A DNA stretch of 54,161 nt from positions 1-54,161 of the forward strand of contig JAUSEW010000035.1 in assembly GCA_030651475.1 (NCBI GenBank), given 5' to 3'. Positions 5,478 through 54,161 of this stretch are shown here, in pieces; the stretch's first letter is position 1; the number at the start of each line of letters is the position of its first letter. The stretch is from Candidatus Levyibacteriota bacterium. GTDB taxonomy: Bacteria > Patescibacteriota > Microgenomatia > Levybacterales > UBA12049. The notes under the pieces were generated by a model. It saw only the letters and a program-made list of their open reading frames with translations. It was not told the DNA's origin and did no database searches. The position numbers and the translations under genes are program-made.

Positions 5478-6311
5478 ATGAAGATTCTTTTAACCGGAGC
5501 TAATAGCTATGTTGGCGCCAGACTTTTCCTCGATTTAAGTAAAAAGTTTGAAGTGGTCGGAACATATCACGAAAATAAACTTTCAGAAAAGCTCATCCAT
5601 CTCAATATTACAGACTCCGAAGAGATTAAGAAGATCATTGACAAACAAAAACCAGAAATCATTATTCATGCAGCTTCAAACGCAAATGCAAGATGGTGCG
5701 AAGCAAATCCCAAATTAGCTATTGCCCTAAATCAAGAACCTACCCTAAATATCGTAGAATCTGCAAATAATATTAACGCTAAAGTAATCTTTATATCCTC
5801 ATATGCAGCAGCTATACCTAATAACGTATATGGAAAAACCAAATATCAAAGTGAGAAATATGTAAAACGAACAAAGAAAGGATTTGTAATTATAAGACCG
5901 TCCCTTCTCATCGGTTTTAGCCCCAACACGATAAACGATAGGCCTTTTAATAGAATATTAAAAAACTTAGACTTAAAAACTGAAGCTATTTATGACACTT
6001 CATGGAAATTCCAGCCCTCCTACTTAGGACACGTTTCGGAAGTTATAGCGCAAGTTATTAAGAATAATATCCTAAACGAGACGATATCTGTGGCAGTTCC
6101 TGAACTTAAAACAAGATACGACATAGCAAAAGATATTCTGGGAACTTTCCATATTGAGGTTAAGCCTATTGATAAAAAAGATACTACCAATGTTATCATT
6201 GATGACCTAAAAGCATTACAAATCTTGAAACTTCCTCAATATAGTTATGGAAAAATAATTAGCAAAATTATTGATGAAATTAAACACAGGGAATTTTTCT
6301 CAACAATTTAG
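5478..6311 (+). CDS. Extended SDR / RmlD-like NAD(P)-dependent oxidoreductase
   Basis: MKILLTGANSYVG Rossmann motif, IIHAA, YGKTK (YxxxK). Confidence 0.85.
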   Translation: MKILLTGANSYVGARLFLDLSKKFEVVGTYHENKLSEKLIHLNITDSEEIKKIIDKQKPEIIIHAASNANARWCEANPKLAIALNQEPTLNIVESANNINAKVIFISSYAAAIPNNVYGKTKYQSEKYVKRTKKGFVIIRPSLLIGFSPNTINDRPFNRILKNLDLKTEAIYDTSWKFQPSYLGHVSEVIAQVIKNNILNETISVAVPELKTRYDIAKDILGTFHIEVKPIDKKDTTNVIIDDLKALQILKLPQYSYGKIISKIIDEIKHREFFSTI

Positions 6312-7187: not shown

Positions 7188-7559
7188 ATGGATGATAAAA
7201 TTCTCCGAAGTTTAATCCTCCTAACCTACAAAGGCAAAGTGCTCCTTATGCATAAAAATAATGGTCCGATGGATGAAGAAAAACACCCCTGGACTTTTAT
7301 CGGCGGGGTTAAAGAGAAAAGAGAATCTTTTGAAAACGCGATGACTAGACGGGTAGAGAAAGAAACGGGTATAAAAATTGAAAAAGTTGAATTTGTGTCG
7401 GAATCTTGCTATCACGCCAGACTAACAGACGATAATGTAAATAAAATAGAACGGGCAGAAAATCAGCTGCTTAATTTTTTCTCTCTTAAAGAACTAGGAA
7501 AACTTTTCTTGTCAAACACAACAGCGCAATTTATATCAAAGCACGGCTCCCTTATTTAG
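7188..7559 (+). CDS. Nudix-fold protein with degenerate Nudix box
   Basis: WTFIGGVKEKRESFENAMTRRVEKETG aligns to the Nudix box but with two E to R/K changes. Confidence 0.65.
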   Translation: MDDKILRSLILLTYKGKVLLMHKNNGPMDEEKHPWTFIGGVKEKRESFENAMTRRVEKETGIKIEKVEFVSESCYHARLTDDNVNKIERAENQLLNFFSLKELGKLFLSNTTAQFISKHGSLI

Positions 7560-42563: not shown

Positions 42564-43568
42564 CTAAATTAATTTCCTTAGTTCTTCGTCTATAAACCCT
42601 TCTATTTCTCCATTCAAAACTGCTTCCGTGTTCGTTGTTTCAAAACCCGTACGTAAATCTTTCACCATATGGTAAGGATGCACCACATAAGATCTTATTT
42701 GATTGCCCCATCCGGGCACTTTGTATCCTCCTTTTAAATGCTCCTCTTCTTTTTTGCGCTTTTCTTCTTCCAAAACCCAAAGTTTTGCCCTCAAAATCTT
42801 CAATGCGTTTTCACGATTTTGACCCTGGTAACGCTCCGCGTGTGCAGTAACGACTATACCTGTTGGTTTGTGTTTCAAACGGACTGCAGTAGAAACCTTA
42901 TTGACGTTTTGTCCGCCGTGCCCTCCGGCTCTAAAAAATTCCCATTCCAAATCTTCATCTGTTATCCTTAGCTCCTCCTCCTTAACATCCGGCAATACTT
43001 CAACTAATGCAAAAGATGTTTGTCTTAAATGATCCGCATTAAAAGGAGATTGTCTAACTAAACGATGAACTCCTGCTTCGCCTTTTAAATATCCATAAGT
43101 ATATTTTCCGCTGACAGTCAAAATAACATTTTTTAAACCTGCTTCCTCTCCTAAGGTTTCTTCAATAACTTCGTATTTCCAACTTTTTCTATCAAAAAAA
43201 CGGGAATACATTCTATAAAGCATTTGTGTCCAATCCATTGCATCTACCCCCCCTTGTCCTGCATGAATTGAAAGAATTGCGCAACCTTGATCATATGGAC
43301 CGGATAAATAAAATACGATTTCCAAATCCTTAAGTAATTTACCTGCTTCTTCGTAGTCACCATTATCTGTCAGATCTTTAAGCTTCTCTGCCTTTTGAAT
43401 TTCCTCCTGCAAAACTGATAATTCCTTCATTTTATCCGAAGCTTCTTTGTGATTTTGCCAAAATGAAGGAGAAGAGCTTTGGACCTCGATTTCTCTTATC
43501 TTTTTTCTTTTATCATCTATCTTTAATTCCTCTAAAACTTTATTAATCTGCTCTCTTACGTTATCCAT
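42564..43568 (-). CDS. prfB: Peptide chain release factor 2 (single frame)
   Basis: SPF anticodon mimic (RQSPF), GGQ, QIRSYV; start moved to ATG 43568. Confidence 0.94.
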
Positions 43569-43575
43569 ATTTATT

Positions 43576-43995
43576 TTATAAACCGCTGCATATTTTTGTG
43601 CATACGTCTTTTGCTTGATTTCTCGGATAATCCTGCAAAGACTGCAAATCCTCAATTATTTTCTTGACCTGTGGGGAAGAGGATGTGATATCAGCGACAT
43701 TAAGATTTTTTACTTCCTGCTGTATGACTTCAAGCTGATCTTGAACAATTTTCTGAACAGGTAAATTAGCTGCGGGCGGATTAATTTTTGTAGCTTGAGC
43801 GTTTAATTCTTCTTGCGTTACAGCGCCTTTAACAGATTGAAGAGCACTAATGATAGGAGATTCTTTAGGCAAGGTATTGTTGCCTAAAACAAAATTCTTT
43901 ATCCCGAACGCTCCTGTTAATAGTGCTATTATTACTAAAAGGGTAAGGAAAATTCTCTTTTTATTCCACGACTCTCCCTGTTCTAGTTTCTCCAT
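43576..43995 (-). CDS. Membrane-anchored hypothetical protein
   Basis: N-terminal TM helix, C-terminal CxxxC. Confidence 0.65.
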
Positions 43996-43999
43996 GAGG

Positions 44000-44905
44000 T
44001 TATTTTAACATATATCTTATGCCTCTTTTTGCGTATGGATAAGTTGTAGCATAAAAAACCCCAAAAATAACAAGAACTCCTGAAATAATTAAACCTCCAG
44101 TTAATTTTTCTCCCAAAAAAGGAATCGCGGTAATTGCTGCAGAAAGAGGCCCAAGATACTGAAAGAAAGAAGCCGTAAAAGCAGATGTTCTTTTTATTGC
44201 GAATTGAATAAGAAAAAACATAAGAGCAGATGATATGATTCCTATCGTAAAAAGACTCAAAACTCCAAGCGGAGTGACATGAGATAGAATAAGTGGTCGA
44301 ACCGACTGCTCAATGGGAACCAAAATCAACAGAATAAAAGCTGTTATCGCATAACTTACAAAACTTGTTGTAACCGGTGAATAAACTCTTGTAAGTTTCT
44401 TCGAAAGAACCATATAGACAGCCCAAGATAATACAGCAAGAAGCGTAAGAAAATTTCCCAACGGCGTTCCAAGGGATAATATATCCATTTTAGAAGCTGA
44501 CTGCTGTATTAAAAAGATGATTCCTCCCATTGCAATAATAAGTCCAATAATTTTATGTCTTGTAAATTTTTCATTTAAAATAAAATAGCTTAATACGCTA
44601 ACAACTAAAGGAACTATTGTATAAAGAATTTGGGACATGATTGCACCCGTGTGCTGAGATGCTATGCTAAAAATCCCAACGTTTCCTGCAAAGAAAATTG
44701 ATTGTAGGGACAATTGTTTAATATCCGGTCGTTTTAATTTCTCTTTTTGCAGTATAAAGAAGGGCAACAATACCGTTGTTGCTATTATAAATCGAAGGCA
44801 GGTAAACAACAAAGGAGGAAAGTCCTTTATTCCAATTTTAAGAAGCAGCGTGCTTTGTCCCCCAATAAAACCAGCAACAAAAAGTGCTAATAATCCCATC
44901 CACAT
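44000..44905 (-). CDS. DMT/EamA family transporter
   Basis: Ten TM helices in two EamA-like repeats (LRF, LNEK, LGEKL). Confidence 0.88.
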   Translation of the reverse strand: MWMGLLALFVAGFIGGQSTLLLKIGIKDFPPLLFTCLRFIIATTVLLPFFILQKEKLKRPDIKQLSLQSIFFAGNVGIFSIASQHTGAIMSQILYTIVPLVVSVLSYFILNEKFTRHKIIGLIIAMGGIIFLIQQSASKMDILSLGTPLGNFLTLLAVLSWAVYMVLSKKLTRVYSPVTTSFVSYAITAFILLILVPIEQSVRPLILSHVTPLGVLSLFTIGIISSALMFFLIQFAIKRTSAFTASFFQYLGPLSAAITAIPFLGEKLTGGLIISGVLVIFGVFYATTYPYAKRGIRYMLK

Positions 44906-44937
44906 ATAATTAATTTAAAACGTGGTACAATAATAAC

Positions 44938-45273
44938 ATGAACTTAAAAACCCTTCAAGAAAAAATAAAACTCCTAAATGAGAAAATAAGACCACAATAC
45001 AAGCTTTATTCTCAAAAAGAGAAAGAAATTTTAACCAAAACAGTAAAGCTCAATGAAGAAGTAGGAGAATTATGCAACGATATTCTTTCTATTCTTAAGC
45101 TACAAAGGCGGGCGAAATTGGAAAAATTCGACAAAAGAAATGTCTATCAGGAATTTGCAGATGTTGTTATTACCACCATTCAATTAGCTGTTGCTGCAGG
45201 AGTAGATGTGGAAAGAGCTGTTAACGATAAGCTTAAAAAGATAGAAGAAAAATATTTGAAAAATTCAAATTAA
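44938..45273 (+). CDS. MazG-like nucleotide pyrophosphohydrolase
   Basis: KLNEEVGEL...EFADV motif. Confidence 0.85.
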   Translation: MNLKTLQEKIKLLNEKIRPQYKLYSQKEKEILTKTVKLNEEVGELCNDILSILKLQRRAKLEKFDKRNVYQEFADVVITTIQLAVAAGVDVERAVNDKLKKIEEKYLKNSN

Positions 45274-45605
45274 ATTTTTTGCTTACCTTTTGCTTCTTTA
45301 ATATCTTTATACAGCTCATCTTTTAGCTGATTCGCTGCTTTTTTAATTTTTTCCTCTATGTTATCTATTTTCTTCTTTAAATGCTCCCAAATTTTGTCAT
45401 GATTATTGGCAGATAAATGCGTTAAGAAAATCTTCTTATCTTCCTCCGAAAGTTCCGATAAGATTACATCCAAAATCACATTATGCATGGTTGCTTCCGT
45501 AAGAGATATCAGATGAATTCTTTCTTCTTTGGATAAATCCATATCTCCCAACTCAAGACTAATAGACGATGTCTCAATTATGTGACTGTAAAAATGTTTG
45601 TTCAT
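45270..45605 (-). CDS. Hypothetical helical protein
   Basis: About 111 aa; start at 45605 or 45626. Confidence 0.6.
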   Translation of the reverse strand: MNKHFYSHIIETSSISLELGDMDLSKEERIHLISLTEATMHNVILDVILSELSEEDKKIFLTHLSANNHDKIWEHLKKKIDNIEEKIKKAANQLKDELYKDIKEAKGKQKI

Positions 45606-45615
45606 ATTTAATCTA

Positions 45616-46497
45616 TTATAACGCAATTGGGCCTAAGGCAACTTTATCTTGCGGATCATCAATAAAAAAATAAAGCACAGGACCTCTTTTTGATCCGTCT
45701 TCTCTTTCTAGATAATTCATTACTTCCGGCGATCCGCCTAGATGTTTTCCTGTCCATTGCGACGGACCTGCATCTGCTATATCCGCCACAACTGACTTTC
45801 CGTTTTGGGGATTTACAACCAGCATTTTTCGATATTTAAAAAAATCCCTATATTCTGCAAATCTTTGATTAAAATCAGGGATTAAAAATGTCTGTACTGC
45901 TATATAATATTTTTCTCTCAATTTATCCTTTTGCGTTAATTGGTTTTGTGAAGGCGAGAAATAACCCCACGCCCCAAGTCCCGGCGCCATACCATAAGAC
46001 CAATATTTCGTAGCATCTTCGTTGTTATCGAAATGTGACGACATCGTATCTCCCGGATAAAGCGCCAAGTGCTGTTCCTGACCTATTACTCCATAATTTC
46101 TGTTAAGTTTTTTTCCATCCAGTTCTGCCAAAACTTTAAATCCAAAAATCCTGGATAAAATTTCAGAAACATTTTGTTCTTGATCAAATGTTAAAGGAAT
46201 AACCTCCGAAGGCAGAACATGCGAAAGATCAGACACCAAAAAAACATTTTTATTTATTTCCTTGGGGGACTGCGCATTTGCTACGGGAAAAGAGTCAGTA
46301 GCTATTTTTGGTAAAGACTGCGAACCTAAAAGAAATAATCCCGCAAGAGAACTTAAAGCAAATCGTTTTGTATTATCAACTAAGAAGCTTAACGCATTTC
46401 CATGTTTAGCCCAAAGCTTTTCCTGTAAACTTTTGTGTCTGGCTATCCATTTATCTTTTAAGTGTTCGTAGTGCGGTTTTGTATTTTGAGCAAACAT
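45616..46497 (-). CDS. Conserved-looking hypothetical protein, possible C-terminal double-psi beta-barrel
   Basis: KSVVADIADAGP resembles the RlpA/DPBB V-x-D-x-GP motif; weak. Confidence 0.5.
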   Translation of the reverse strand: MFAQNTKPHYEHLKDKWIARHKSLQEKLWAKHGNALSFLVDNTKRFALSSLAGLFLLGSQSLPKIATDSFPVANAQSPKEINKNVFLVSDLSHVLPSEVIPLTFDQEQNVSEILSRIFGFKVLAELDGKKLNRNYGVIGQEQHLALYPGDTMSSHFDNNEDATKYWSYGMAPGLGAWGYFSPSQNQLTQKDKLREKYYIAVQTFLIPDFNQRFAEYRDFFKYRKMLVVNPQNGKSVVADIADAGPSQWTGKHLGGSPEVMNYLEREDGSKRGPVLYFFIDDPQDKVALGPIAL

Positions 46498-46536
46498 ACC
46501 CTATCTAATAGTAAATAAACGTAAGAGCTAAATCAA

Positions 46537-48945
46537 TTAAATATGTTTTCTATAAACAAAAATTAGTATTCCCGATAAGAGCAGAACAACAATTGCTATT
46601 TTTAAACCCAATAAGAATGACGCGTTGTCATAAACCATTACTATGACATGTTCTCCTTTCGGAATAGGGATAGCTCTGAATGTGTAATTTGCTCTTAAAA
46701 TTTTACCCTCTTTTCCGTCAATAAAAACTTTAAACATTTTTGAATAATTATCGGAAAGATAAAATAGCGATGGATTGTTTGCCTTAACTTTTACCGATAT
46801 TGTATTTGGAGAATATTGAATAATCTCTGCGCTTCCTGTATTTTCTTTTGGCTTAAAACCTGGATTTTCCTCTAAGACTATTTTGTCTGGATGAAAATTT
46901 TCGCTGAATAATGATTTTAAAATTTCCTTATCATTTTCAATAATCTGAAAATTGCTAGTAACAAAAAATCTTGGCATTGATTTTTTATATTGATAAATTT
47001 GCCATTTATCATTTTGCCAAAGCAAAGAAAAATCATTCTTATTGGGAACTGCACCTGTTAATTCCATTGATTTTTTATCAGTAACTATATATTTCACACT
47101 TATTAATTCATAAAACCTATGCAGTCTATTGTTGTTAGGATAAAATACATCTTTTGGATAAACTTCTAAATCAAAAGCTATTTTGCCGGGAATTTTAATA
47201 TCTCCATATTCCATATAGCTTATAAACTCTCCATATCTTCCTATATACATTGACCCTATTCCTTCAGGGGAATACAAATTAAATTGCAAGGGAATGCTTG
47301 GGACTATGTGTCCATAACCTATACTCATAAATCTATCCAATCCTTGATTTTCTTTAAGATATGAAAAAACAGGATGCTGTGGATAAAGAAATTCACGATT
47401 GGAAAAAGGGATATATTTCTGGCCAAAAAGAAAACTTTGCGTAAATAAAACCGCTATGACCAAAAAGAAAAAGATATTTTTTGAATACCTGTTTCTAAAT
47501 ATAAAAAATGTAATTGTAGTTGCCAAAAGAAAAACCATTGGAATTATAAAATTTTTAAACTGAATTGCCTCAACGCTAATATTAATTCCTGCCTTATCAA
47601 CTTTATTTAACAAACTGAGATCTTTTAGAATTCTGTATGCCAAAAATGATCCTAAAATAACCATGATAAGCCATAGGAAAATAAAAGACTTTTTAATTAT
47701 TTTGCGCACAAAATCTTTCTTCTCGTTAATAAGAAGATCAAAACCGTATGCGGCAAGAACACAAAAAGAAAACGTAGTAATTAAAAATATCCTATTGGGA
47801 AGAAATGATGTAAGGATGGGTATGTTTGAAGAAATTACTCCTCTTGATATAAAATTATCTACTGCAAGTATTAAAGTTATAAGTATTGAAATAATGAAAA
47901 AAATTATTTTTTTATTATTTCTTGTAAGTATTGCAAATAAAGAAAATATAAAAGGAATTATTCCTATAAACATTACTGACTCTTTGTAGTCGCTTTTGCC
48001 AAAATAATTGTAAGCCGCAGGATTTCCCCAAAAGTCCGGAATAATTAGAGTAAAAATGTGAGATATTGGCATTAAATGCTGGAAGGAAAATACTCTTCCC
48101 GACAGACCAACTCTTGGTGAATCCAAAAGCGCATGGAATGACGGTATTATATGAAATAAAGTTACAAAGGGTAATATTACAAAAGGAATTAATGCTAAAT
48201 AATAAAATTTTGATTTATTTTTATTTTCAAGATAAATTTTAAAGAGTAAATAGATTAAGGAAAAACCAAATATGTAAAATGTGTATTGCAGCCATCCTGC
48301 AAGAAGAGAAAACATCAAGGAAAAAAGGATTATACAGAGATATCTTATTTTTTTCGTTTGGAAAAATGACTCTATGCCCCAAAAAACGTATGGCATCCAA
48401 ATTAACGTATGGCCAACACTCAAGCCCTCTACGGATCTCACAATTAAAATTCCCGAGAAAGCCAAAGCAAAAGCTCCGAAAATTGCTGATTTTTTGGAAA
48501 CAACAATTTTGCCTAAAAATAAGAACATTCCTGCTCCGGCAATAACTGGCTCTATCAAAATTAGGAAAACCCAAACGTTAATTTGAGGAAAAATTAGAAA
48601 CAGAAAATTAAGAGGATAAAAAACTGCTGTTTCCGAAAGCCCTAAATGATAATTTCCCGAAAAAGAATACGGATTCCAAAATGGTATTTCTCTTTTCTTA
48701 AGAAGGCCATCTGTAAACGTTCTCTGGGGATAAAAAATCCAAAGATCATCTTTTCCTGTCGGTCGATTGGGAATTCCTGTTTCCCATCCGCTAAATTTTT
48801 CCTGCGCCCAAGGATTAAAAAAAGAAGTAAGAAGATTTGCGGAAAATGGAATCTTATTTTGGAGAAACACTTGCCAAAACAAAATAAAAGTGGACAGGGA
48901 AAGGATAATTAAAAAAAATAGAAAATTAAACTTAATTTTTCCCAT
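46537..48945 (-). CDS. YfhO-like GT-C membrane protein
   Basis: PFWNPYSFSG, many TM helices, C-terminal NYTFRAIPIPKGEH-V-M-Y plus TM. Confidence 0.8.
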   Translation of the reverse strand: MGKIKFNFLFFLIILSLSTFILFWQVFLQNKIPFSANLLTSFFNPWAQEKFSGWETGIPNRPTGKDDLWIFYPQRTFTDGLLKKREIPFWNPYSFSGNYHLGLSETAVFYPLNFLFLIFPQINVWVFLILIEPVIAGAGMFLFLGKIVVSKKSAIFGAFALAFSGILIVRSVEGLSVGHTLIWMPYVFWGIESFFQTKKIRYLCIILFSLMFSLLAGWLQYTFYIFGFSLIYLLFKIYLENKNKSKFYYLALIPFVILPFVTLFHIIPSFHALLDSPRVGLSGRVFSFQHLMPISHIFTLIIPDFWGNPAAYNYFGKSDYKESVMFIGIIPFIFSLFAILTRNNKKIIFFIISILITLILAVDNFISRGVISSNIPILTSFLPNRIFLITTFSFCVLAAYGFDLLINEKKDFVRKIIKKSFIFLWLIMVILGSFLAYRILKDLSLLNKVDKAGINISVEAIQFKNFIIPMVFLLATTITFFIFRNRYSKNIFFFLVIAVLFTQSFLFGQKYIPFSNREFLYPQHPVFSYLKENQGLDRFMSIGYGHIVPSIPLQFNLYSPEGIGSMYIGRYGEFISYMEYGDIKIPGKIAFDLEVYPKDVFYPNNNRLHRFYELISVKYIVTDKKSMELTGAVPNKNDFSLLWQNDKWQIYQYKKSMPRFFVTSNFQIIENDKEILKSLFSENFHPDKIVLEENPGFKPKENTGSAEIIQYSPNTISVKVKANNPSLFYLSDNYSKMFKVFIDGKEGKILRANYTFRAIPIPKGEHVIVMVYDNASFLLGLKIAIVVLLLSGILIFVYRKHI

Positions 48946-48964
48946 TAATATAATTTATGAAAAT

Positions 48965-51727
48965 TTAATTCGGATAGTGGCATTTTTTATATTTTTTCCC
49001 GCTTCCGCAAAAACAGGGGTCGTTGCGGCCGATTTTTATTGCACCCTCACCCTGGCCCTCTCCCCTCGAGGGAGAGGGAACGTTTTCCCCACCCTCCTCC
49101 TTCACCGCTCCGGAGCCTGCGCTTGCTCGGCCCGTCAGGGACCCCTGCATAATAAGTCCTTCTTGTTCCAAAAGTGATGGCGCAACAACCGCGGCAGTAC
49201 CCACTTTAAATACGGTATGCGCAACATCATGCTGAACCGCTGACAACAAATTCTGATACAAATAATACGTTTCCTTTTTATACGCGACGAGCGGATCCTG
49301 CTGTGCATATCCGCGAAGGCCAATGCCGGCACGCAAACGATCAATCGCTACCAAGTGATCAATCCACAGCACATCAAGCGTGCGCACCAAAAGCGCTTTT
49401 TCCATTTCATGCAGAAAATCAGCATTTTCAACGTGCTTTTCCATGTCCGCGTATATCGCGCGCGCGCCGTCTGCCAAAAGTTCTATCGCCTGCCCCGCGG
49501 CATCCTCGGATTGTGTTGTCCCAAATTCACGAAGTTTTTCCAAATGTTCTTTTGAGATTGGATATATTTTCTGAACCGCCGCGGTAATTGCATCAATATC
49601 CCAGTCCGCATCAGGAGTAGCGTGCGCATTCACAATCTCCGCAATTTCGCCACGCACCATGTCTAAAATAATATCTTTCAGTGACGAAAATCCCTCGCTC
49701 GTCACTTCCAATTTATTTTCTGCAAGTTCCAGCATCTCGCGACGACGGCGATAAATAGTCTCGCGATGTTTATTCAAAACATCATCATAATCAAGGAGGT
49801 GTTTGCGGATATCAAAGTTATGGCCTTCCACTTTTTTCTGCGCGGTTTCAATGGCTTTACTCACCATTTTTGCCTCAATAGGCACATCTTCTGGTACACG
49901 GAGGCGCGTCATCATGGATTTAATACGATCACCGGCAAAAATGCGCATAAGATCATCCTCAACCGAAACATAAAATTGCGTAGCACCCGGATCACCCTGA
50001 CGTCCCGCGCGTCCGCGGAGCTGGTTATCAATACGCCGTGATTCATGACGTTCTGTACCCAGCACAAATAATCCGCCGAGTTCCCGGACGCGTGCGGCTT
50101 CATCTTTATCCTGCGGATTGCCGCCGAGCACAATGTCCACGCCGCGGCCTGCCATGTTGGTAGCAAGCGTTACGGCACCCGCGCGTCCTGCTTGCGCAAT
50201 CACTTCAGCTTCACGTTCGTGATTTTTTGCGTTCAACATTTGAAACGGAATACCCTCGCGTTCCAACAGAAGCCCGAGTTCCTCATTTTTTTCAATAGAA
50301 ATAGTACCGAGTAGTACCGGCTGACCGCGCTCGTGCAATTCTTTAATATGACGCACCACGGCCGCAAATTTTGCAGATTCACTGCTATAAATCCTATCCG
50401 GATGATCAATACGCTGATCAATTCTATTGGTGGGCATCACCACTACTTCCAGCTTATAAATTTTTCCAAACTCTTCCGCTTCTGTCACGGCCGTTCCGGT
50501 CATACCGCCGAGTTTTTTATACATGCGGAAATAATTTTGGAACGTGACCGTGGCGAGCGTTTGGCTTTCGCGCTGAATTTTTACATTTTCTTTTGCTTCG
50601 ATGGCTTGATGCAATCCTTCTGAATAGCGGCGGCCGGGCATTTTGCGTCCGGTAAATTCGTCAACAATAATAACCTCATCGCTTTCAACTACATACTGCT
50701 TATCTTTTTGGTACAGCGTTTCTGCACGGAGCGCCTCATCAATATGATGCACCGTGCGGATGCCGGCATCGGTGTAAATGTTGCCCACGCCGAGCCATTG
50801 CTCCATTTTTTTGATACCAGCATCGGTCAAAATAGCACTGCGAAGTTTTTCATCCACCTGATAATCCTCTTCTTTTTTGAGCTGACGCGTGAGACGCGCA
50901 AACTGGTAATACAATTCTGCCGCTTCTGCCGCGGCTCCGGAAATAATGAGCGGCGTGCGCGCTTCATCAACTAAAATGGAGTCCACCTCATCAACAATGG
51001 CGTACAGATGACCGCGCTGAACCATCTCGCCGAGGCGCCCCACCATGTTATCGCGGAGATAATCAAAACCGAATTCATTGTTGGTGCCATAGGTGATGTC
51101 GCACGCGTACGCGGCGGCGCGTTCTGCGGGACGGAGGTAGGTTTTCTCTACTTTAAACGAGCCCGTGGTGTCACGGCTTTCATCACGCGGCGTGCCTTCA
51201 TCTTCCGGCGCGGCGTGTCCGCCGTATTCGGGGTCATAGATAAAAGTGGTGCCTTGATGCTGAATGATACCAACGGAAAGTCCGAGCGCATGGTAAATCT
51301 GTCCCATCCACACCGCGTCGCGTTCGGCAAGATAATCGTTCACGGTCACGAGGTGTACACCAAGACCTGCGAGCGCGTTGAGATACAGCGGCAGAGTTGA
51401 GGTGAGTGTTTTTCCTTCACCGGTGCGCATTTCCGCTATTTGGCCGCGATGGAGCGTGATGCCGCCGGCAAGCTGAACGTCATAATGACGTTGACCGAGG
51501 GTGCGTTTGGAAGCTTCGCGGACTGCAGCGAATGCTTCAGGGAGGAGGTTATCTAGCGTCTCGCCTTTTTCTAAACGCGCGCGGAATTCTTCTGTTTTTG
51601 CGCGGAGCTCGCCCGTGGTGAGACGCACAAAATCCGGCTCAAGTGAGTTTATTTTTTGTACCAGCGGATCCATCTCTTTTACTGCTTTAGCGTTAGGATC
51701 CCCGAAAATTTTGGTGAGGAATGACAT
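48965..51727 (-). CDS. secA: Protein translocase subunit SecA
   Basis: MRTGEGKT, TNNEFGFDYLRDNM, VDEVD, TNMAGRG, QLRGRAGRQGDPG, SEC-C GRNDPCFCGSGKKYKKC. Confidence 0.97.
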   Translation of the reverse strand: MSFLTKIFGDPNAKAVKEMDPLVQKINSLEPDFVRLTTGELRAKTEEFRARLEKGETLDNLLPEAFAAVREASKRTLGQRHYDVQLAGGITLHRGQIAEMRTGEGKTLTSTLPLYLNALAGLGVHLVTVNDYLAERDAVWMGQIYHALGLSVGIIQHQGTTFIYDPEYGGHAAPEDEGTPRDESRDTTGSFKVEKTYLRPAERAAAYACDITYGTNNEFGFDYLRDNMVGRLGEMVQRGHLYAIVDEVDSILVDEARTPLIISGAAAEAAELYYQFARLTRQLKKEEDYQVDEKLRSAILTDAGIKKMEQWLGVGNIYTDAGIRTVHHIDEALRAETLYQKDKQYVVESDEVIIVDEFTGRKMPGRRYSEGLHQAIEAKENVKIQRESQTLATVTFQNYFRMYKKLGGMTGTAVTEAEEFGKIYKLEVVVMPTNRIDQRIDHPDRIYSSESAKFAAVVRHIKELHERGQPVLLGTISIEKNEELGLLLEREGIPFQMLNAKNHEREAEVIAQAGRAGAVTLATNMAGRGVDIVLGGNPQDKDEAARVRELGGLFVLGTERHESRRIDNQLRGRAGRQGDPGATQFYVSVEDDLMRIFAGDRIKSMMTRLRVPEDVPIEAKMVSKAIETAQKKVEGHNFDIRKHLLDYDDVLNKHRETIYRRRREMLELAENKLEVTSEGFSSLKDIILDMVRGEIAEIVNAHATPDADWDIDAITAAVQKIYPISKEHLEKLREFGTTQSEDAAGQAIELLADGARAIYADMEKHVENADFLHEMEKALLVRTLDVLWIDHLVAIDRLRAGIGLRGYAQQDPLVAYKKETYYLYQNLLSAVQHDVAHTVFKVGTAAVVAPSLLEQEGLIMQGSLTGRASAGSGAVKEEGGENVPSPSRGEGQGEGAIKIGRNDPCFCGSGKKYKKCHYPN
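49044..49080. repeat. In-frame REP-like palindrome in secA C-terminal linker
   Basis: CCCTCACCCTGG-CCCTCTCCC-CTCGA-GGGAGAGGG; encodes PSPSRGEGQGEG. Confidence 0.75.
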
Positions 51728-51775
51728 ACGATAAGACCCCTATAACCTATCATCTCCTCACGAAATGGTCAAGCA

Positions 51776-52108
51776 TTACCCTTGCTGTCTCTTGTCAATC
51801 ATTTTTTCTTTTAAATCCACCAGCTGACGCTGAAGTTCTTTCCGCACCACGTCAATCGCGGCATAGAGATCCTCATGCACCTCGCGTGAGCGCACCGGAC
51901 CCTCGTCCGGAATAATCATGTGCACCTCGCAAAAAAAGATGGGGCCTTTGTTGTGATGTTCTGATTCTTTTCCTACTTCTACTTCAACCGTGACGGCCTC
52001 GGGGTTTTTGGTGTGCACGAATTTTTCAAGCGCCTGCATTCTTTCCTCTGCGTGCTGTTTTATTGCCTCCGTGAGTTCTATCCCGAGTCCCTGGATGGTG
52101 ATGTTCAT
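51776..52108 (-). CDS. hpf: Ribosome hibernation factor, short HPF/RaiA type
   Basis: MNITIQG-GIELTEAI, EDLYAAID; no long-HPF C-terminal domain. Confidence 0.88.
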   Translation of the reverse strand: MNITIQGLGIELTEAIKQHAEERMQALEKFVHTKNPEAVTVEVEVGKESEHHNKGPIFFCEVHMIIPDEGPVRSREVHEDLYAAIDVVRKELQRQLVDLKEKMIDKRQQG

Positions 52109-52124
52109 ATGTAAGTGTGATACC

Positions 52125-53078
52125 TTAACCTATATATTGAATTTCCTCTTCAAGCCCTATCCCATAAGAATCATATACCTTTTGCTTAATTTTTTCCACC
52201 AGCGCCTTTACTTCTGCCGCGGTGGCACCGCCGGTATTCACCACAAAATTACCATGCGTTTCTGAGACCATTGCCGCGCCTTCTTTCTCTCCTTTCATGC
52301 CGGAGTGTTCAATAAGCCAGCCAGCAGATATTCTTTTTTTATCCAAAAATTCTTGCGGAATATTTTTGTTTGCCCACGCGGGGTCTATTTCCGTAAATTC
52401 AAAATTTTTAAAGATACATCCGGTGGAGGCGAATCCTTTTGGTTGCGTTTTATTGCGCTTCTCTAAAAACTCCATCATTTTTTTGAGGCCGCCGCGCTCT
52501 TCATCAAATTTCAATTTCAATGTTGCGCCGAGTACAATGCCACTGTTGTGTTTGAAAATGCTGTCGCGATAATGAAATGCACATTCGGCATTGGTAAAGG
52601 TGCGCACTTCTCCATCAACCAGCGCCTGCACGCTTTCAATAACATCTTTTATTTCACTACCGAACGCACCCGCGTTGCCCCGCACCGCGCCGCCAATAGT
52701 TCCGGGCACGCCAATTCCCCATTCAAATCCTGCAAGACCCGCGTCAATGCTGGCGCGCGTGAGTGCGGCCGTAACCACTCCCGCGTCTGCAATAACGGTG
52801 TCATCGGCAACACTGTACGCGTTCATTTCTATTTTTATGGCGACGCCCGCGAATCCTTCATCTGAAACCAGCATGTTGCTACTGCCGCCAAAAACAAAAT
52901 ACGGAAGATCGTGTGCGCTTGCGATGGCGAGCGCTTGTTGTAACTCTTCCGTGTTTTTGACGGGGATGAGGTATTGCGCTGGTCCGCCGATTTTAAAGGT
53001 AGTGTATCGCGCGAGCGGTACACTTTGTTTGGCATTTGGAAATGCTTCCTGAATTTTTTCCCAGAGTTTATCGGACAT
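52125..53078 (-). CDS. murB: UDP-N-acetylenolpyruvoylglucosamine reductase
   Basis: TTFKIGGPA, GGSSN, GIPGT-like GVPGTIGGA, NAGAFG, GCIFKN, HGNFVVN. Confidence 0.95.
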   Translation of the reverse strand: MSDKLWEKIQEAFPNAKQSVPLARYTTFKIGGPAQYLIPVKNTEELQQALAIASAHDLPYFVFGGSSNMLVSDEGFAGVAIKIEMNAYSVADDTVIADAGVVTAALTRASIDAGLAGFEWGIGVPGTIGGAVRGNAGAFGSEIKDVIESVQALVDGEVRTFTNAECAFHYRDSIFKHNSGIVLGATLKLKFDEERGGLKKMMEFLEKRNKTQPKGFASTGCIFKNFEFTEIDPAWANKNIPQEFLDKKRISAGWLIEHSGMKGEKEGAAMVSETHGNFVVNTGGATAAEVKALVEKIKQKVYDSYGIGLEEEIQYIG

Positions 53079-53082
53079 GTTT

Positions 53083-54161
53083 TTATTCTACTAAATTCCG
53101 CGCGACCGAATCAATATCCCCTGCTCCCATGATAACTACTATATCATTCTTTTTGATGTTGGCGCGGAGCCAGCCTTCTGTTTGGTCAAGGGTGGCGGTG
53201 TAGTGCACCGGGAATTGCGCCCTCGCCCCTACTTTTTCCGCGAGCACTTTTGACGTGACATCCTGATCTTTGTCCTCCTCGCGCCCGGCAACATCATAAA
53301 TCTCATTCAACACTAAAACATCTACGGGCGCAACCGTGAGCGCGTCAACAAAATCATTGAACAAGTTTTTTGTTCGGTTGTGCTGATGGGGCTGAAACAC
53401 TAAAATTACGCGCCGATCCGGATATAACTCGCGCACCATAGCCGAAGTTTCCCGAATCGCCGTAGGATGATGGCCGTAATCTGAATACACGAGCGCGCCT
53501 TTATACTCCCCTACTTTTTCAAAACGCCGCCAGATGCCGCGAAAATTTTCCGCAACATGTCCTTGTACCGCAGGCGGCACACCAGCCAAACCCGCGGCAC
53601 TTCCCGCGGCTAACACGTTACGTACATTAAATTCGCCCGGCACGCCCACTTTTATTTCCTGCGTAAAACCTTGCGTGTGCATGTGCGCAACACCCGCGCC
53701 ATCTACACTTTTGTAACCGGAATAATACACGGAGGCAATCGCGGTTTTACCAAACGTGTACGTTTTTCCTTTCCACGTTAATTCTTTGCAGCCGGCGTCA
53801 TCGGCGGATTTTATGAGAATCCCCTCTTCCGGAAGTTCGTTTACAAATTCCTGATACACTTTTATTTCATGTTTCAAATCTTTATAAAAATCCAAATGAT
53901 CCGGTTCAATATACGTCACCACCGCGATGTTTGGTTTGATATGGCGCATGTTGCCCTGATGCTCGCACGCTTCAACCACCAAAAAATTTGAATGACCCAC
54001 GCGCACATTGCCGTGTTCAAATTGCGGCACGAGCGAGCCGACAAAAATGGTGGGATCAAATCCCGCTTCCTGCATCATAAGGCCGATGAGCGCCGTGGTA
54101 GTTGATTTTCCATGCGTGCCCGTGACCGCGATGGTGAATTTCTTTTCTGAAAGCGCGCCCA
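53083..54161 (-). CDS. murC: UDP-N-acetylmuramate--L-alanine ligase, 5'-truncated by window edge
   Basis: Frame continues upstream of 54078 with AVTGTHGKSTTT; VEACE, EPDHLD, RRFE, DYGHHP, FQPH, GAGD. Confidence 0.93.
   Translation of the reverse strand, partial: GALSEKKFTIAVTGTHGKSTTTALIGLMMQEAGFDPTIFVGSLVPQFEHGNVRVGHSNFLVVEACEHQGNMRHIKPNIAVVTYIEPDHLDFYKDLKHEIKVYQEFVNELPEEGILIKSADDAGCKELTWKGKTYTFGKTAIASVYYSGYKSVDGAGVAHMHTQGFTQEIKVGVPGEFNVRNVLAAGSAAGLAGVPPAVQGHVAENFRGIWRRFEKVGEYKGALVYSDYGHHPTAIRETSAMVRELYPDRRVILVFQPHQHNRTKNLFNDFVDALTVAPVDVLVLNEIYDVAGREEDKDQDVTSKVLAEKVGARAQFPVHYTATLDQTEGWLRANIKKNDIVVIMGAGDIDSVARNLVE

What the first reader, a model, noticed from the sequence alone, without database searches (positions are those of the whole stretch)
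48945..48967. Abrupt compositional and probable taxonomic break inside a 19-bp intergenic gap
Hand counts of G+C per 60-nt line: left 22 (lon), 23 (prfB), 21 and 8 (yfhO-like); right 30, 40, 24, 35 (secA) and 35 (murC), with CGCG words becoming frequent. The right side holds core genes (secA, hpf, murB, murC), not island genes, and its SecA has an NBD1 insertion I associate with Parcubacteria, while the left looks Microgenomates-like. Both flanking genes are intact and co-oriented, and hpf-secA upstream of prfB-ftsEX echoes a familiar gene order, which is unexpected for a random contig join. Most likely a chimeric assembly or concatenation; a real inter-lineage replacement of core genes would be remarkable.
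Basis: partly seen in the sequence, partly recalled or inferred. Interest (0 to 1): 0.62.

Follow-up and report, generated by a model that had tools for sequence, protein, structure and literature searches.

The report
Chimeric contig joined inside secA
The sharp change in base composition is real, but it is an assembly error: DNA of a rare second bacterium was stitched onto the abundant bacterium's contig at a 29-letter word that both share at the end of their secA genes, so it is a curation matter and not biology.

Summary
The compositional and taxonomic break is real and is the largest in this 0.91-Mb genome bin. G+C rises from about 0.33 to 0.49 (a step of 0.171, against at most 0.077 anywhere else).

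The break does not lie in the 19-bp gap. It lies 16-64 nt further right, inside the 3' end of secA, within window 48981-49009. This 29-nt word codes the SecA zinc-finger residues C-G-S-G-K-K-Y-K-K-C and is identical in both organisms.

In the one public run that holds this DNA:
- Everything left of the word has depth about 150-197x. This is organism A, a Levybacteria of the Microgenomates group.
- Everything right of the word has depth 5.7-9x. This is organism B, which is Uhrbacteria/Parcubacteria-like.
- An independent assembly of that run joins the yfhO-like gene to A's native secA at 167x. That native secA lies at the end of another contig of the bin, C18.
- B's own contig ends its secA differently (KKCHGV*).

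A close relative of A has the same secA tail (KKCHYPN*), the same 19-nt spacer and the same yfhO-like gene downstream.

The bin therefore holds duplicate secA, murB and murC genes. The last ~790 nt of C18 are a second mis-join at the same word.

Verdict: inter-genome assembly chimera.

The parts
46537..48945 (-). yfhO-like membrane protein gene of organism A (Levybacteria), the last fully native gene of the contig
   Evidence: Pfam YfhO match. Depth is about 167x in run X1. A 90%-identical homologue lies directly downstream of secA in the relative L084.
48946..48964 (.). 19-nt intergenic spacer, native to organism A and not the breakpoint
   Evidence: The identical spacer ATTTTCATAAATTATATTA (minus strand) lies between secA and the yfhO-like gene in the relative L084. 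It is covered by the 167x contig.
48965..48980 (-). A-specific end of secA: the third base of the Cys codon, codons H-Y-P-N and the stop
   Evidence: The 167x Logan contig reads AAATGCCACTATCCGAATTAAATTTTCATA after C18:89459. The CHYPN* tail is shared by Microgenomates SecA proteins L084, L085, L086, L155 and L017. B's own contig departs from the window left of 48981 and ends KKCHGV*.
48981..49009 (-). 29-nt word identical in organisms A and B (minus strand TGCGGAAGCGGGAAAAAATATAAAAAATG; codes C-G-S-G-K-K-Y-K-K-C of the SEC-C zinc finger). The mis-join lies somewhere within it.
   Evidence: The boundaries come from exact matches of B's 5.69x contig (48981-49071) and of A's 166.7x contig (exact to C18:89459, with 8 mismatches to the window between 49010 and 49037). 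The ML composition change point is after 48997. The first 24 nt occur as an exact word in at least 117 genomes of many phyla.
49010..51727 (-). body of the secA gene of organism B (low-depth, Uhrbacteria/Parcubacteria-like)
   Evidence: Depth is 5.7-9x. G+C is 0.50 and GC3 0.49. In the tree it groups with L004-L007, which include an Uhrbacteria, and lies outside the Microgenomates clade. Pfam finds the SecA domains.
49042..49078 (.). GC-rich palindromic word inside the SecA C-terminal linker of B (codes PSPSRGEGQGEG); it is a branch point of the assembly graph
   Evidence: Three X1 contigs share 49042-49071. Contigs at 80-86x in another groundwater run carry the word, in both orientations within one contig. 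It occurs once in the bin.
51776..52108 (-). hpf (ribosome hibernation factor) of organism B
   Evidence: Pfam Ribosomal_S30AE. Depth about 8-14x. The order murB-hpf-secA is the same in Uhrbacteria L007.
52125..53078 (-). murB of organism B, a duplicate of the bin's native murB at C18:79911-80852 (32% identity)
   Evidence: Depth about 8x.
53083..54161 (-). murC of organism B, cut by the contig end; a duplicate of the native murC at C17:124315-125286 (31% identity)
   Evidence: Depth 6-8.5x.

Best explanation
Contig C20, which is the whole window, is an inter-genome assembly chimera.

Window 1-48980 is DNA of the abundant organism A, a Levybacteria at about 160x. Window 49010-54161 is DNA of a rare organism B from the same groundwater sample, which is Uhrbacteria/Parcubacteria-like at about 7x.

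Both organisms have a secA gene whose 3' end codes the conserved SEC-C zinc finger. Over 29 nt (48981-49009) the two genes are letter-for-letter identical and in the same frame. The assembler crossed from one genome to the other within this word. I infer that this happened at a k-mer size of 29 or less, or during repeat resolution.

Because the crossing is in frame, it leaves an open hybrid ORF: the SecA body of B with the last residues (HYPN) of A. That is why both flanking genes look intact.

In the true genome of A, the native secA (now at the end of contig C18, up to C18:89459) continues directly into window 48985 and downwards on the minus strand: AAA TGC CAC TAT CCG AAT TAA, then the 19-nt spacer, then the yfhO-like gene.

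The last ~790 nt of C18 (89460-90247) are a second mis-join at the same word, to a third organism at 4-5x.

Shown: the depths, the alternative join, the shared word, the duplicate genes, the lineage placements and the relative's synteny. Inferred: the exact step of the assembler at which the error arose.
For: 1. Depth. In run X1 (a groundwater metagenome holding 99% of the junction's sampled words), Logan contigs cover window 26001-49009 at 149-197x and 49010-54156 only at 5.7-9x.

2. Alternative join.
- One 7366-nt contig at 166.7x runs from window 43070 to about 49009 and then into C18 secA.
- Its loose end after 49037 (TTATTAACCGCTTGCCCGCTTGTCTTAGGT) is the reverse complement of C18:89378-89407.
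- It matches C18:88010-89459 with no mismatch. After C18:89459 it reads AAATGCCACTATCCGAATTAAATTTTCATA, which is the window's minus strand.

3. B's own path. A 734-nt contig at 5.69x matches window 48981-49071 exactly. Left of 48981 it reads other DNA, which gives B a secA tail of KKCHGV*.

4. Duplicate single-copy genes. The bin has a second full secA (C18:86826-89468, 49.6% identity), a second murB and a second murC, all in low-GC context.

5. Independent relative. L084, whose SecA is 94% identical to the C18 SecA, has secA ending KKCHYPN*, then the identical 19-nt spacer, then a yfhO homologue (90%). The window's next genes follow in the same order.

6. Lineage.
- C18 SecA sits inside Levyibacteriota (support 100).
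- The window's SecA sits with L004-L007, including an Uhrbacteria (support 92), outside the Microgenomates clade (support 100).
- Uhrbacteria L007 has the order murC-murB-hpf-secA.

7. Composition. This is the largest GC step in the genome, with the change point after 48997 (48991-49015) and a tetranucleotide z of 8.7.

8. Second chimera. C18:89506-90247 has depth 4-5x next to 167x. The C18 secA tail KRCHGA* is not the Levybacteria type.

9. The word is a cross-phylum exact repeat. The 24-mer is found in at least 117 genomes, and 32 of 80 fetched loci hold the full 29-mer.

10. Conserved regions are a recognised cause of interspecies chimeric contigs, which are common in near-complete MAGs (bioRxiv 10.64898/2026.10.15.759294).
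Against: - Only Logan's contigs of the run were available, not raw reads, and contigs show presence, not absence. I therefore could not count reads or read pairs across 48980-49010.
- Run X1 is probably the sample the bin came from. The depth and join evidence is thus an independent assembly of the same data, not independent data.
- A shared word of 29 nt is short for the final k of most assemblers, so the step at which the error arose is inferred.
- B's contigs on either side of 49042-49071 meet at a branch point. The link between B's secA body and B's tail therefore rests on similar depth and on the reading frame.
Confidence: 0.95

Rival explanations
1. A minor subpopulation of the Levybacteria (about 4% of cells) really carries Uhrbacteria-type secA-hpf-murB-murC next to its yfhO-like gene. 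It would have acquired them by homologous recombination at the SEC-C word, and the assembler happened to report that variant.
For: The join is in frame at a shared word, as recombination would also give. The right side's depth (about 7x) could in principle be a rare strain. Contigs cannot prove that the junction 31-mer is absent.
Against: - The low-depth contig that carries 48981-49071 continues leftwards into non-Levybacteria DNA with its own stop (KKCHGV*), not into the yfhO-like gene.
- No exact Logan contig covers 48980-49010.
- C18 shows a second mis-join at the same word, to yet another low-depth organism, which points to the assembler.
- The 5.2 kb keeps a fully foreign composition (GC3 0.46-0.57 against 0.25-0.31).
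- It carries four core genes whose native copies are present elsewhere in the bin.
Confidence: 0.03
2. There was a genuine horizontal replacement of core genes, fixed in the dominant Levybacteria population.
For: Both flanking ORFs are open and co-oriented, and the gene order looks natural.
Against: - Depth is 20-fold lower on the right.
- The 167x contig joins the yfhO-like gene to the native secA.
- Native secA, murB and murC are present.
- A close relative has the native arrangement.
- There is no tRNA gene in 44000-54161, and no Pfam match among the genes scanned from 40462 onward is an integrase or transposase.
Confidence: 0.01
3. Two unrelated contigs were concatenated or scaffolded end to end after assembly, by a binning, scaffolding or file-handling artefact, with the joint in the intergenic gap.
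Against: - There are no Ns.
- The switch is inside a 29-nt word shared by both genomes and keeps the reading frame. That is the signature of a graph mis-join, not of blunt concatenation.
- The gap itself is native to organism A.
Confidence: 0.01

Closest known systems
Interspecies chimeric contigs in metagenome-assembled genomes (misassembly at repeats and conserved regions; the target of tools such as metaMIC, DeepMAsED, ResMiCo, ALE and GUNC)
   Same: - Two genomes from one sample are joined in one contig at a shared conserved sequence.
- Coverage, composition and taxonomy all change at the joint.
- The foreign part is carried into the bin because binners treat a contig as a unit.
- Marker-based contamination stays low (2.4%).
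A 2026 preprint reports at least one such contig in 69% of near-complete MEGAHIT MAGs of the CAMI sets, and names repeats and conserved regions as the cause (10.64898/2026.10.15.759294).
   Different: - The shared sequence is not an rRNA, tRNA or mobile element. It is a 29-nt protein-coding word, the SEC-C zinc-finger codons at the secA 3' end.
- The crossing is in frame and yields an open hybrid SecA ORF, so gene-level checks see nothing wrong.
- The same word produced two mis-joins in one bin, in C20 and at the C18 end.
Genomic island or horizontal gene transfer with a compositional step
   Same: There is an abrupt GC and tetranucleotide change, and the genes' nearest relatives lie in another lineage.
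   Different: - Depth is about 20-fold lower than in the flank.
- The cargo is core single-copy genes whose native copies exist elsewhere in the bin.
- There is no tRNA gene, and no integrase or transposase family among the genes scanned.
- An independent assembly and a close relative both give another, native join.
SEC-C motif (Pfam PF02810), the zinc-binding C-terminal tail of SecA and of YecA-like proteins
   Same: The junction word codes the motif's core CxCGSGKKYKxC. Both SecA proteins match PF02810.
   Different: This concerns the motif's DNA, not its function. With AT-rich codon choice the motif is conserved at the nucleotide level across phyla, so it acts as an inter-genome repeat.

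Membership tests
Inter-genome chimeric contig (assembly artefact) | Read depth changes abruptly at the joint | tested here: met
   Depth is 149-197x left of 49009 and 5.7-9x right of it, in Logan contigs of run X1.
Inter-genome chimeric contig (assembly artefact) | Composition changes abruptly at the same place | tested here: met
   GC step 0.171, the largest of 7368 positions tested. Change point after 48997 (48991-49015). Tetranucleotide z = 8.7.
Inter-genome chimeric contig (assembly artefact) | The two sides belong to different organisms | tested here: met
   SecA tree. Left-side genes are 87-92% identical to Levybacteria relatives. Right-side genes are best matched, and colinear, with Uhrbacteria L007.
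Inter-genome chimeric contig (assembly artefact) | A sequence shared by both genomes lies at the joint | tested here: met
   A 29-nt identical word at 48981-49009.
Inter-genome chimeric contig (assembly artefact) | Another assembly of the same reads resolves each side into its own continuation | tested here: met
   The 166.7x contig joins the yfhO-like gene to C18 secA. The 5.69x contig gives B its own tail and downstream DNA.
Inter-genome chimeric contig (assembly artefact) | Single-copy genes on the foreign part are duplicated in the bin | tested here: met
   A second secA, murB and murC on C18 and C17.
Inter-genome chimeric contig (assembly artefact) | No reads or read pairs span the joint | not testable with these tools
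   Only contigs of run X1 are held, not raw reads. No exact contig covers 48980-49010, but contigs do not prove absence.
Horizontally acquired island or gene replacement | Same depth as the flanking chromosome | tested here: not met
   About 7x against about 165x.
Horizontally acquired island or gene replacement | The junction is reproduced in independent assemblies or relatives | tested here: not met
   The Logan assembly and the relative L084 both give native secA, then the spacer, then the yfhO-like gene.
Horizontally acquired island or gene replacement | Mobility or integration signatures (tRNA, integrase, direct repeats) | tested here: not met
   No tRNA gene in 44000-54161. The Pfam matches are housekeeping families; one gene, 45616-46497, has no match. 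Repeats were not searched specifically.

The most novel reading that the evidence does not exclude
A rare strain of the Levybacteria (a few percent of the population) has truly recombined with a Parcubacteria-like neighbour at the nucleotide-conserved SEC-C word. It would have taken up a foreign secA-hpf-murB-murC block next to its yfhO-like gene. Ultra-conserved coding words would then serve as recombination anchors between distant CPR (candidate phyla radiation) lineages.
Probability: 0.02. Interest if true: 0.7.

Novelty: not a real feature. Interest (0 to 1): 0.1.

Why it matters
It matters for data quality, not for biology.

This public genome bin scores 96% complete and 2.4% contaminated. 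It nevertheless carries 5.2 kb of another phylum-level lineage inside a 54-kb contig, a hybrid SecA protein that exists in no organism, and a second chimeric contig end.

Anyone using this bin for SecA, MurB or MurC phylogeny, for gene-order analysis or for claims of gene transfer would be misled.

Suggested repair:
- Cut C20 within 48981-49009.
- Remove C18:89460-90247.
- Join C18:1-89459 to the reverse complement of C20:1-48985.

More generally, the SEC-C zinc-finger codons form an exact 24-29-nt word shared by genomes of many phyla. They are therefore a predictable place for in-frame mis-joins that gene-level checks cannot see.

Tried and rejected
- Join in the 19-bp gap: rejected. The gap and the last secA codons are native to organism A; the spacer is identical in the relative L084.
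- The 61-nt match between window 48977-49037 and C18 (82% identity) as the overlap behind the join: it is not an exact overlap. Only 24 nt (C18 as deposited) or 29 nt (true A) are identical.
- Laying contigs at 100% likeness to get exact boundaries of the 167x contig: this dropped the contig, because its aligned piece runs 8 mismatches into the B part. The boundaries were obtained by laying the same run on the C18 end instead.
- Looking for other public runs that hold organism A or B, to get independent samples: only run X1 holds either. The other runs share only conserved words or the palindrome.
- The GC-rich palindrome at 49042-49078 as the join point: rejected. B's own contig runs through it to 48981. 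It is only a secondary branch point of the graph.
- Integration signatures: no tRNA gene near the junction.
- The classic RF2 frameshift site CTTTGA near 43540-43700: not found. This is a side question and was left open.
Full report
**Setting.** The window is the whole of contig C20 (54,161 nt) of a 910,733-nt, 36-contig genome bin rated 96% complete and 2.4% contaminated. The flagged place is 5.2 kb from the contig's right end.

**The observation.**
- G+C in 1-kb windows is 0.28-0.43 from 1 to 49000 and 0.48-0.53 from 49001 to the end. In 100-nt windows it goes from 0.17 at 48900-48999 to 0.61-0.70 at 49000-49149.
- I compared adjacent 5-kb blocks at 7368 positions across all long contigs. 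The step at C20:49000 is 0.171. The largest step anywhere else is 0.077, with mean 0.014 and sd 0.012.
- GC3 is 0.25-0.31 in the four genes on the left and 0.46-0.57 in the four on the right. The bin's other secA has GC3 0.26.
- The tetranucleotide profile of the right 5.2 kb lies 8.7 sd from the genome's profile, beyond all 325 control windows. CGCG rises from 0.86 to 15.2 per kb.
  - yfhO-like, 46537-48945
  - a 19-nt gap, 48946-48964
  - secA, 48965-51727
  - hpf, 51776-52108
  - murB, 52125-53078
  - murC, 53083 to the contig end
- Pfam confirms the names, and also RF2, FtsE and FtsX further left.

The compositional break is therefore real and far beyond chance.

**Where the break is.**
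- A maximum-likelihood change point for G+C falls after 48997, with support interval 48991-49015. That is inside the secA 3' end, not in the gap.
- One public run, X1 (a groundwater metagenome), holds 99% of the sampled words of the junction region. It is the only run that holds either side.
- A single 7366-nt contig of Logan's independent assembly of X1, at depth 166.7, covers window 43070 to about 49009. Its continuation beyond the window match, TTATTAACCGCTTGCCCGCTTGTCTTAGGT, is the reverse complement of C18:89378-89407. That lies inside a second secA gene at the end of contig C18.
- Laid on the C18 end, the same contig matches C18:88010-89459 without a mismatch. It then reads AAATGCCACTATCCGAATTAAATTTTCATA, which is the window's minus strand from 48985 downwards: the last secA codons, the stop and the start of the 19-nt spacer.
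- The window right of 49009 is covered only by contigs of depth 5.7-9.
- One of these, 734 nt at 5.69x, matches 48981-49071 exactly. Left of 48981 it reads different DNA (...TAACTTTTATAACACCGTTAAACCCCATGA). This gives that organism a SecA ending KKCHGV* in place of the window's KKCHYPN*.
- The two genomes are therefore identical only over 48981-49009. On the minus strand this word is TGCGGAAGCGGGAAAAAATATAAAAAATG, 29 nt, coding C-G-S-G-K-K-Y-K-K-C of the SEC-C zinc finger. The contig switches genomes within this word.
- The 8 mismatches of the 167x contig to the window are exactly the 8 differences between C18 and the window in 49010-49037.

**Depth.** The left part is uniform at 149-197x over 26001-49009, and native secA on C18 is at 140-290x. 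The right part is at 5.7-9x apart from short spikes at conserved words. That is a 20-fold drop at the joint.

**Who the two organisms are.**
- The C18 SecA is 94% identical to SecA of two MAGs (L084, L085) and 65-75% identical to many Levybacteria. In a maximum-likelihood tree of 58 SecA proteins it sits inside Levyibacteriota (support 100), within a Microgenomates clade that includes Roizmanbacteria and Collierbacteria (support 100).
- The window's SecA is at most 62% identical to anything held. It groups with four Patescibacteria-type sequences that include an Uhrbacteria (support 92), outside the Microgenomates clade.
- It carries the NBD1 insertion (RDTTGSFKV...YLRP) found in Uhrbacteria, Paceibacteria and Kaiserbacteria-type SecA proteins and absent from the Microgenomates ones.
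- Uhrbacteria L007 has murC-murB-hpf-secA in the same order, with the best MurB and MurC matches (43% and 39%). The bin's own MurB and MurC are only 32% and 31% identical.
- The left-side genes are 87-92% identical to their homologues in L084 and L085. Earlier notes on other parts of this genome also call it a Levybacteria.

**Independent check of the native arrangement.** L084 is a different organism, with a SecA 94% identical to the C18 SecA. Its secA ends ...CWCGSGKKYKKCHYPN*. It is followed by the identical 19-nt spacer ATTTTCATAAATTATATTA and by a yfhO homologue (90% identity). The homologues of window genes 45616-46497 and RF2 then follow in the same order. The CHYPN tail is shared by Levybacteria, Roizmanbacteria and Collierbacteria SecA, whereas relatives of B end CHGK, CHGA or CCGR. 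The gap and the last five codons plus stop of the window's secA are thus native Levybacteria sequence, and a native secA belongs exactly here.

**Consequences inside the bin.**
- The bin has two secA, two murB and two murC genes.
- The 920-aa SecA ORF of the window is a hybrid: about 911 residues of B, then the shared motif, then the last residues of A.
- C18 is also wrong at its end. After C18:89459 the deposited contig reads CGT TGC CAC GGT GCT TAA (KRCHGA*) plus about 770 nt that hold an ABM-domain ORF. This stretch has depth 4-5x against 167x just before it.
- The same conserved word thus caused two mis-joins, among three organisms.

**Why this word.** They span Bacillus, Lachnospiraceae, Bacteroidota, Nitrospirota, Planctomycetota, Spirochaetes, Uhrbacteria and others. 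Of 80 loci fetched, 32 hold the full 29-mer, and 40 have the word at the end of a secA gene. The other 40 show no long SecA match beside the word and were not looked at further. With AT-rich codon choice the motif is conserved at the DNA level, so it acts as a short inter-genome repeat. Conserved regions are a recognised cause of interspecies chimeric contigs, which a recent benchmark found in 69% of near-complete MEGAHIT MAGs (10.64898/2026.10.15.759294). I infer, but cannot show, that the error arose at a small k (29 or less) or during repeat resolution.

**Rivals.**
- A fixed horizontal replacement is contradicted by the depth, by the alternative 167x join, by the native copies and by the relative.
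- A rare recombinant strain is not strictly excluded, because only contigs were available. It is unlikely because the low-depth path carries its own secA tail and non-Levybacteria downstream DNA, no exact contig covers 48980-49010, and a second mis-join sits at the same word.
- Blunt concatenation is contradicted by the in-frame switch within a shared word and by the absence of Ns.
- There is no tRNA gene nearby, and no integrase or transposase family among the genes scanned.

**Verdict.** It is not a biological feature. Its only wider use is as a curation note and as an example of an in-frame mis-join at a nucleotide-conserved protein motif.

Noticed in passing
G000 contig C18:89460-90247 (locus L003:5461-6248): The last ~790 nt of contig C18 are a second chimeric appendage. 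Depth is 4-5x against about 167x just before. The secA tail KRCHGA* is not the Levybacteria type. An ABM-domain ORF and a 73-aa ORF follow where the relative L084 has the yfhO-like gene.
   Followed up: yes
window 49042-49078: A GC-rich palindromic word (CACCCTCACCCTGGCCCTCTCCCCTCGAGGGAGAGGG) lies in frame in the SecA C-terminal linker of organism B and codes PSPSRGEGQGEG. It is a branch point in the X1 assembly graph. It occurs at 80-86x in contigs of another groundwater run, in both orientations within one 1351-nt contig. Similar CCCTCTCCC...GGGAGAGGG palindromes lie in loci L046 and L058. It may be a REP-like mobile palindrome translated inside a housekeeping gene.
   Followed up: partly
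G000 contigs C1, C16, C22, C30, C31, C32, C34 (1.2-1.9 kb, G+C 0.59-0.67) and C24, C26, C29 (G+C 0.47-0.49): Ten short contigs of the bin have G+C far above the 0.37 of the genome. They are probably binning contaminants. Depth and taxonomy were not checked.
   Followed up: no
G000 C10:1-5500 and C17:160001-167500: After the C20 junction, these are the most deviant places of the bin in G+C step (C10, 0.077 near 5500) and in tetranucleotide profile (C17:160001, C10:1). They could be islands or further mis-joins.
   Followed up: no
window 42564-43995, minus strand: The RF2 gene appears as two overlapping ORFs (43576-43995 and 42564-43655). The PCRF match in the longer ORF starts only at profile position 82, as expected for the programmed frameshift of prfB. 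The classic CTTTGA shift site was not found in 43540-43700.
   Followed up: partly
Genome-contig loci L164-L243: The 24-nt SEC-C word TGCGGAAGCGGGAAAAAATATAAA is an exact match in at least 117 species' genomes across many phyla. In half of the fetched cases it lies at the end of a secA gene.
   Followed up: partly
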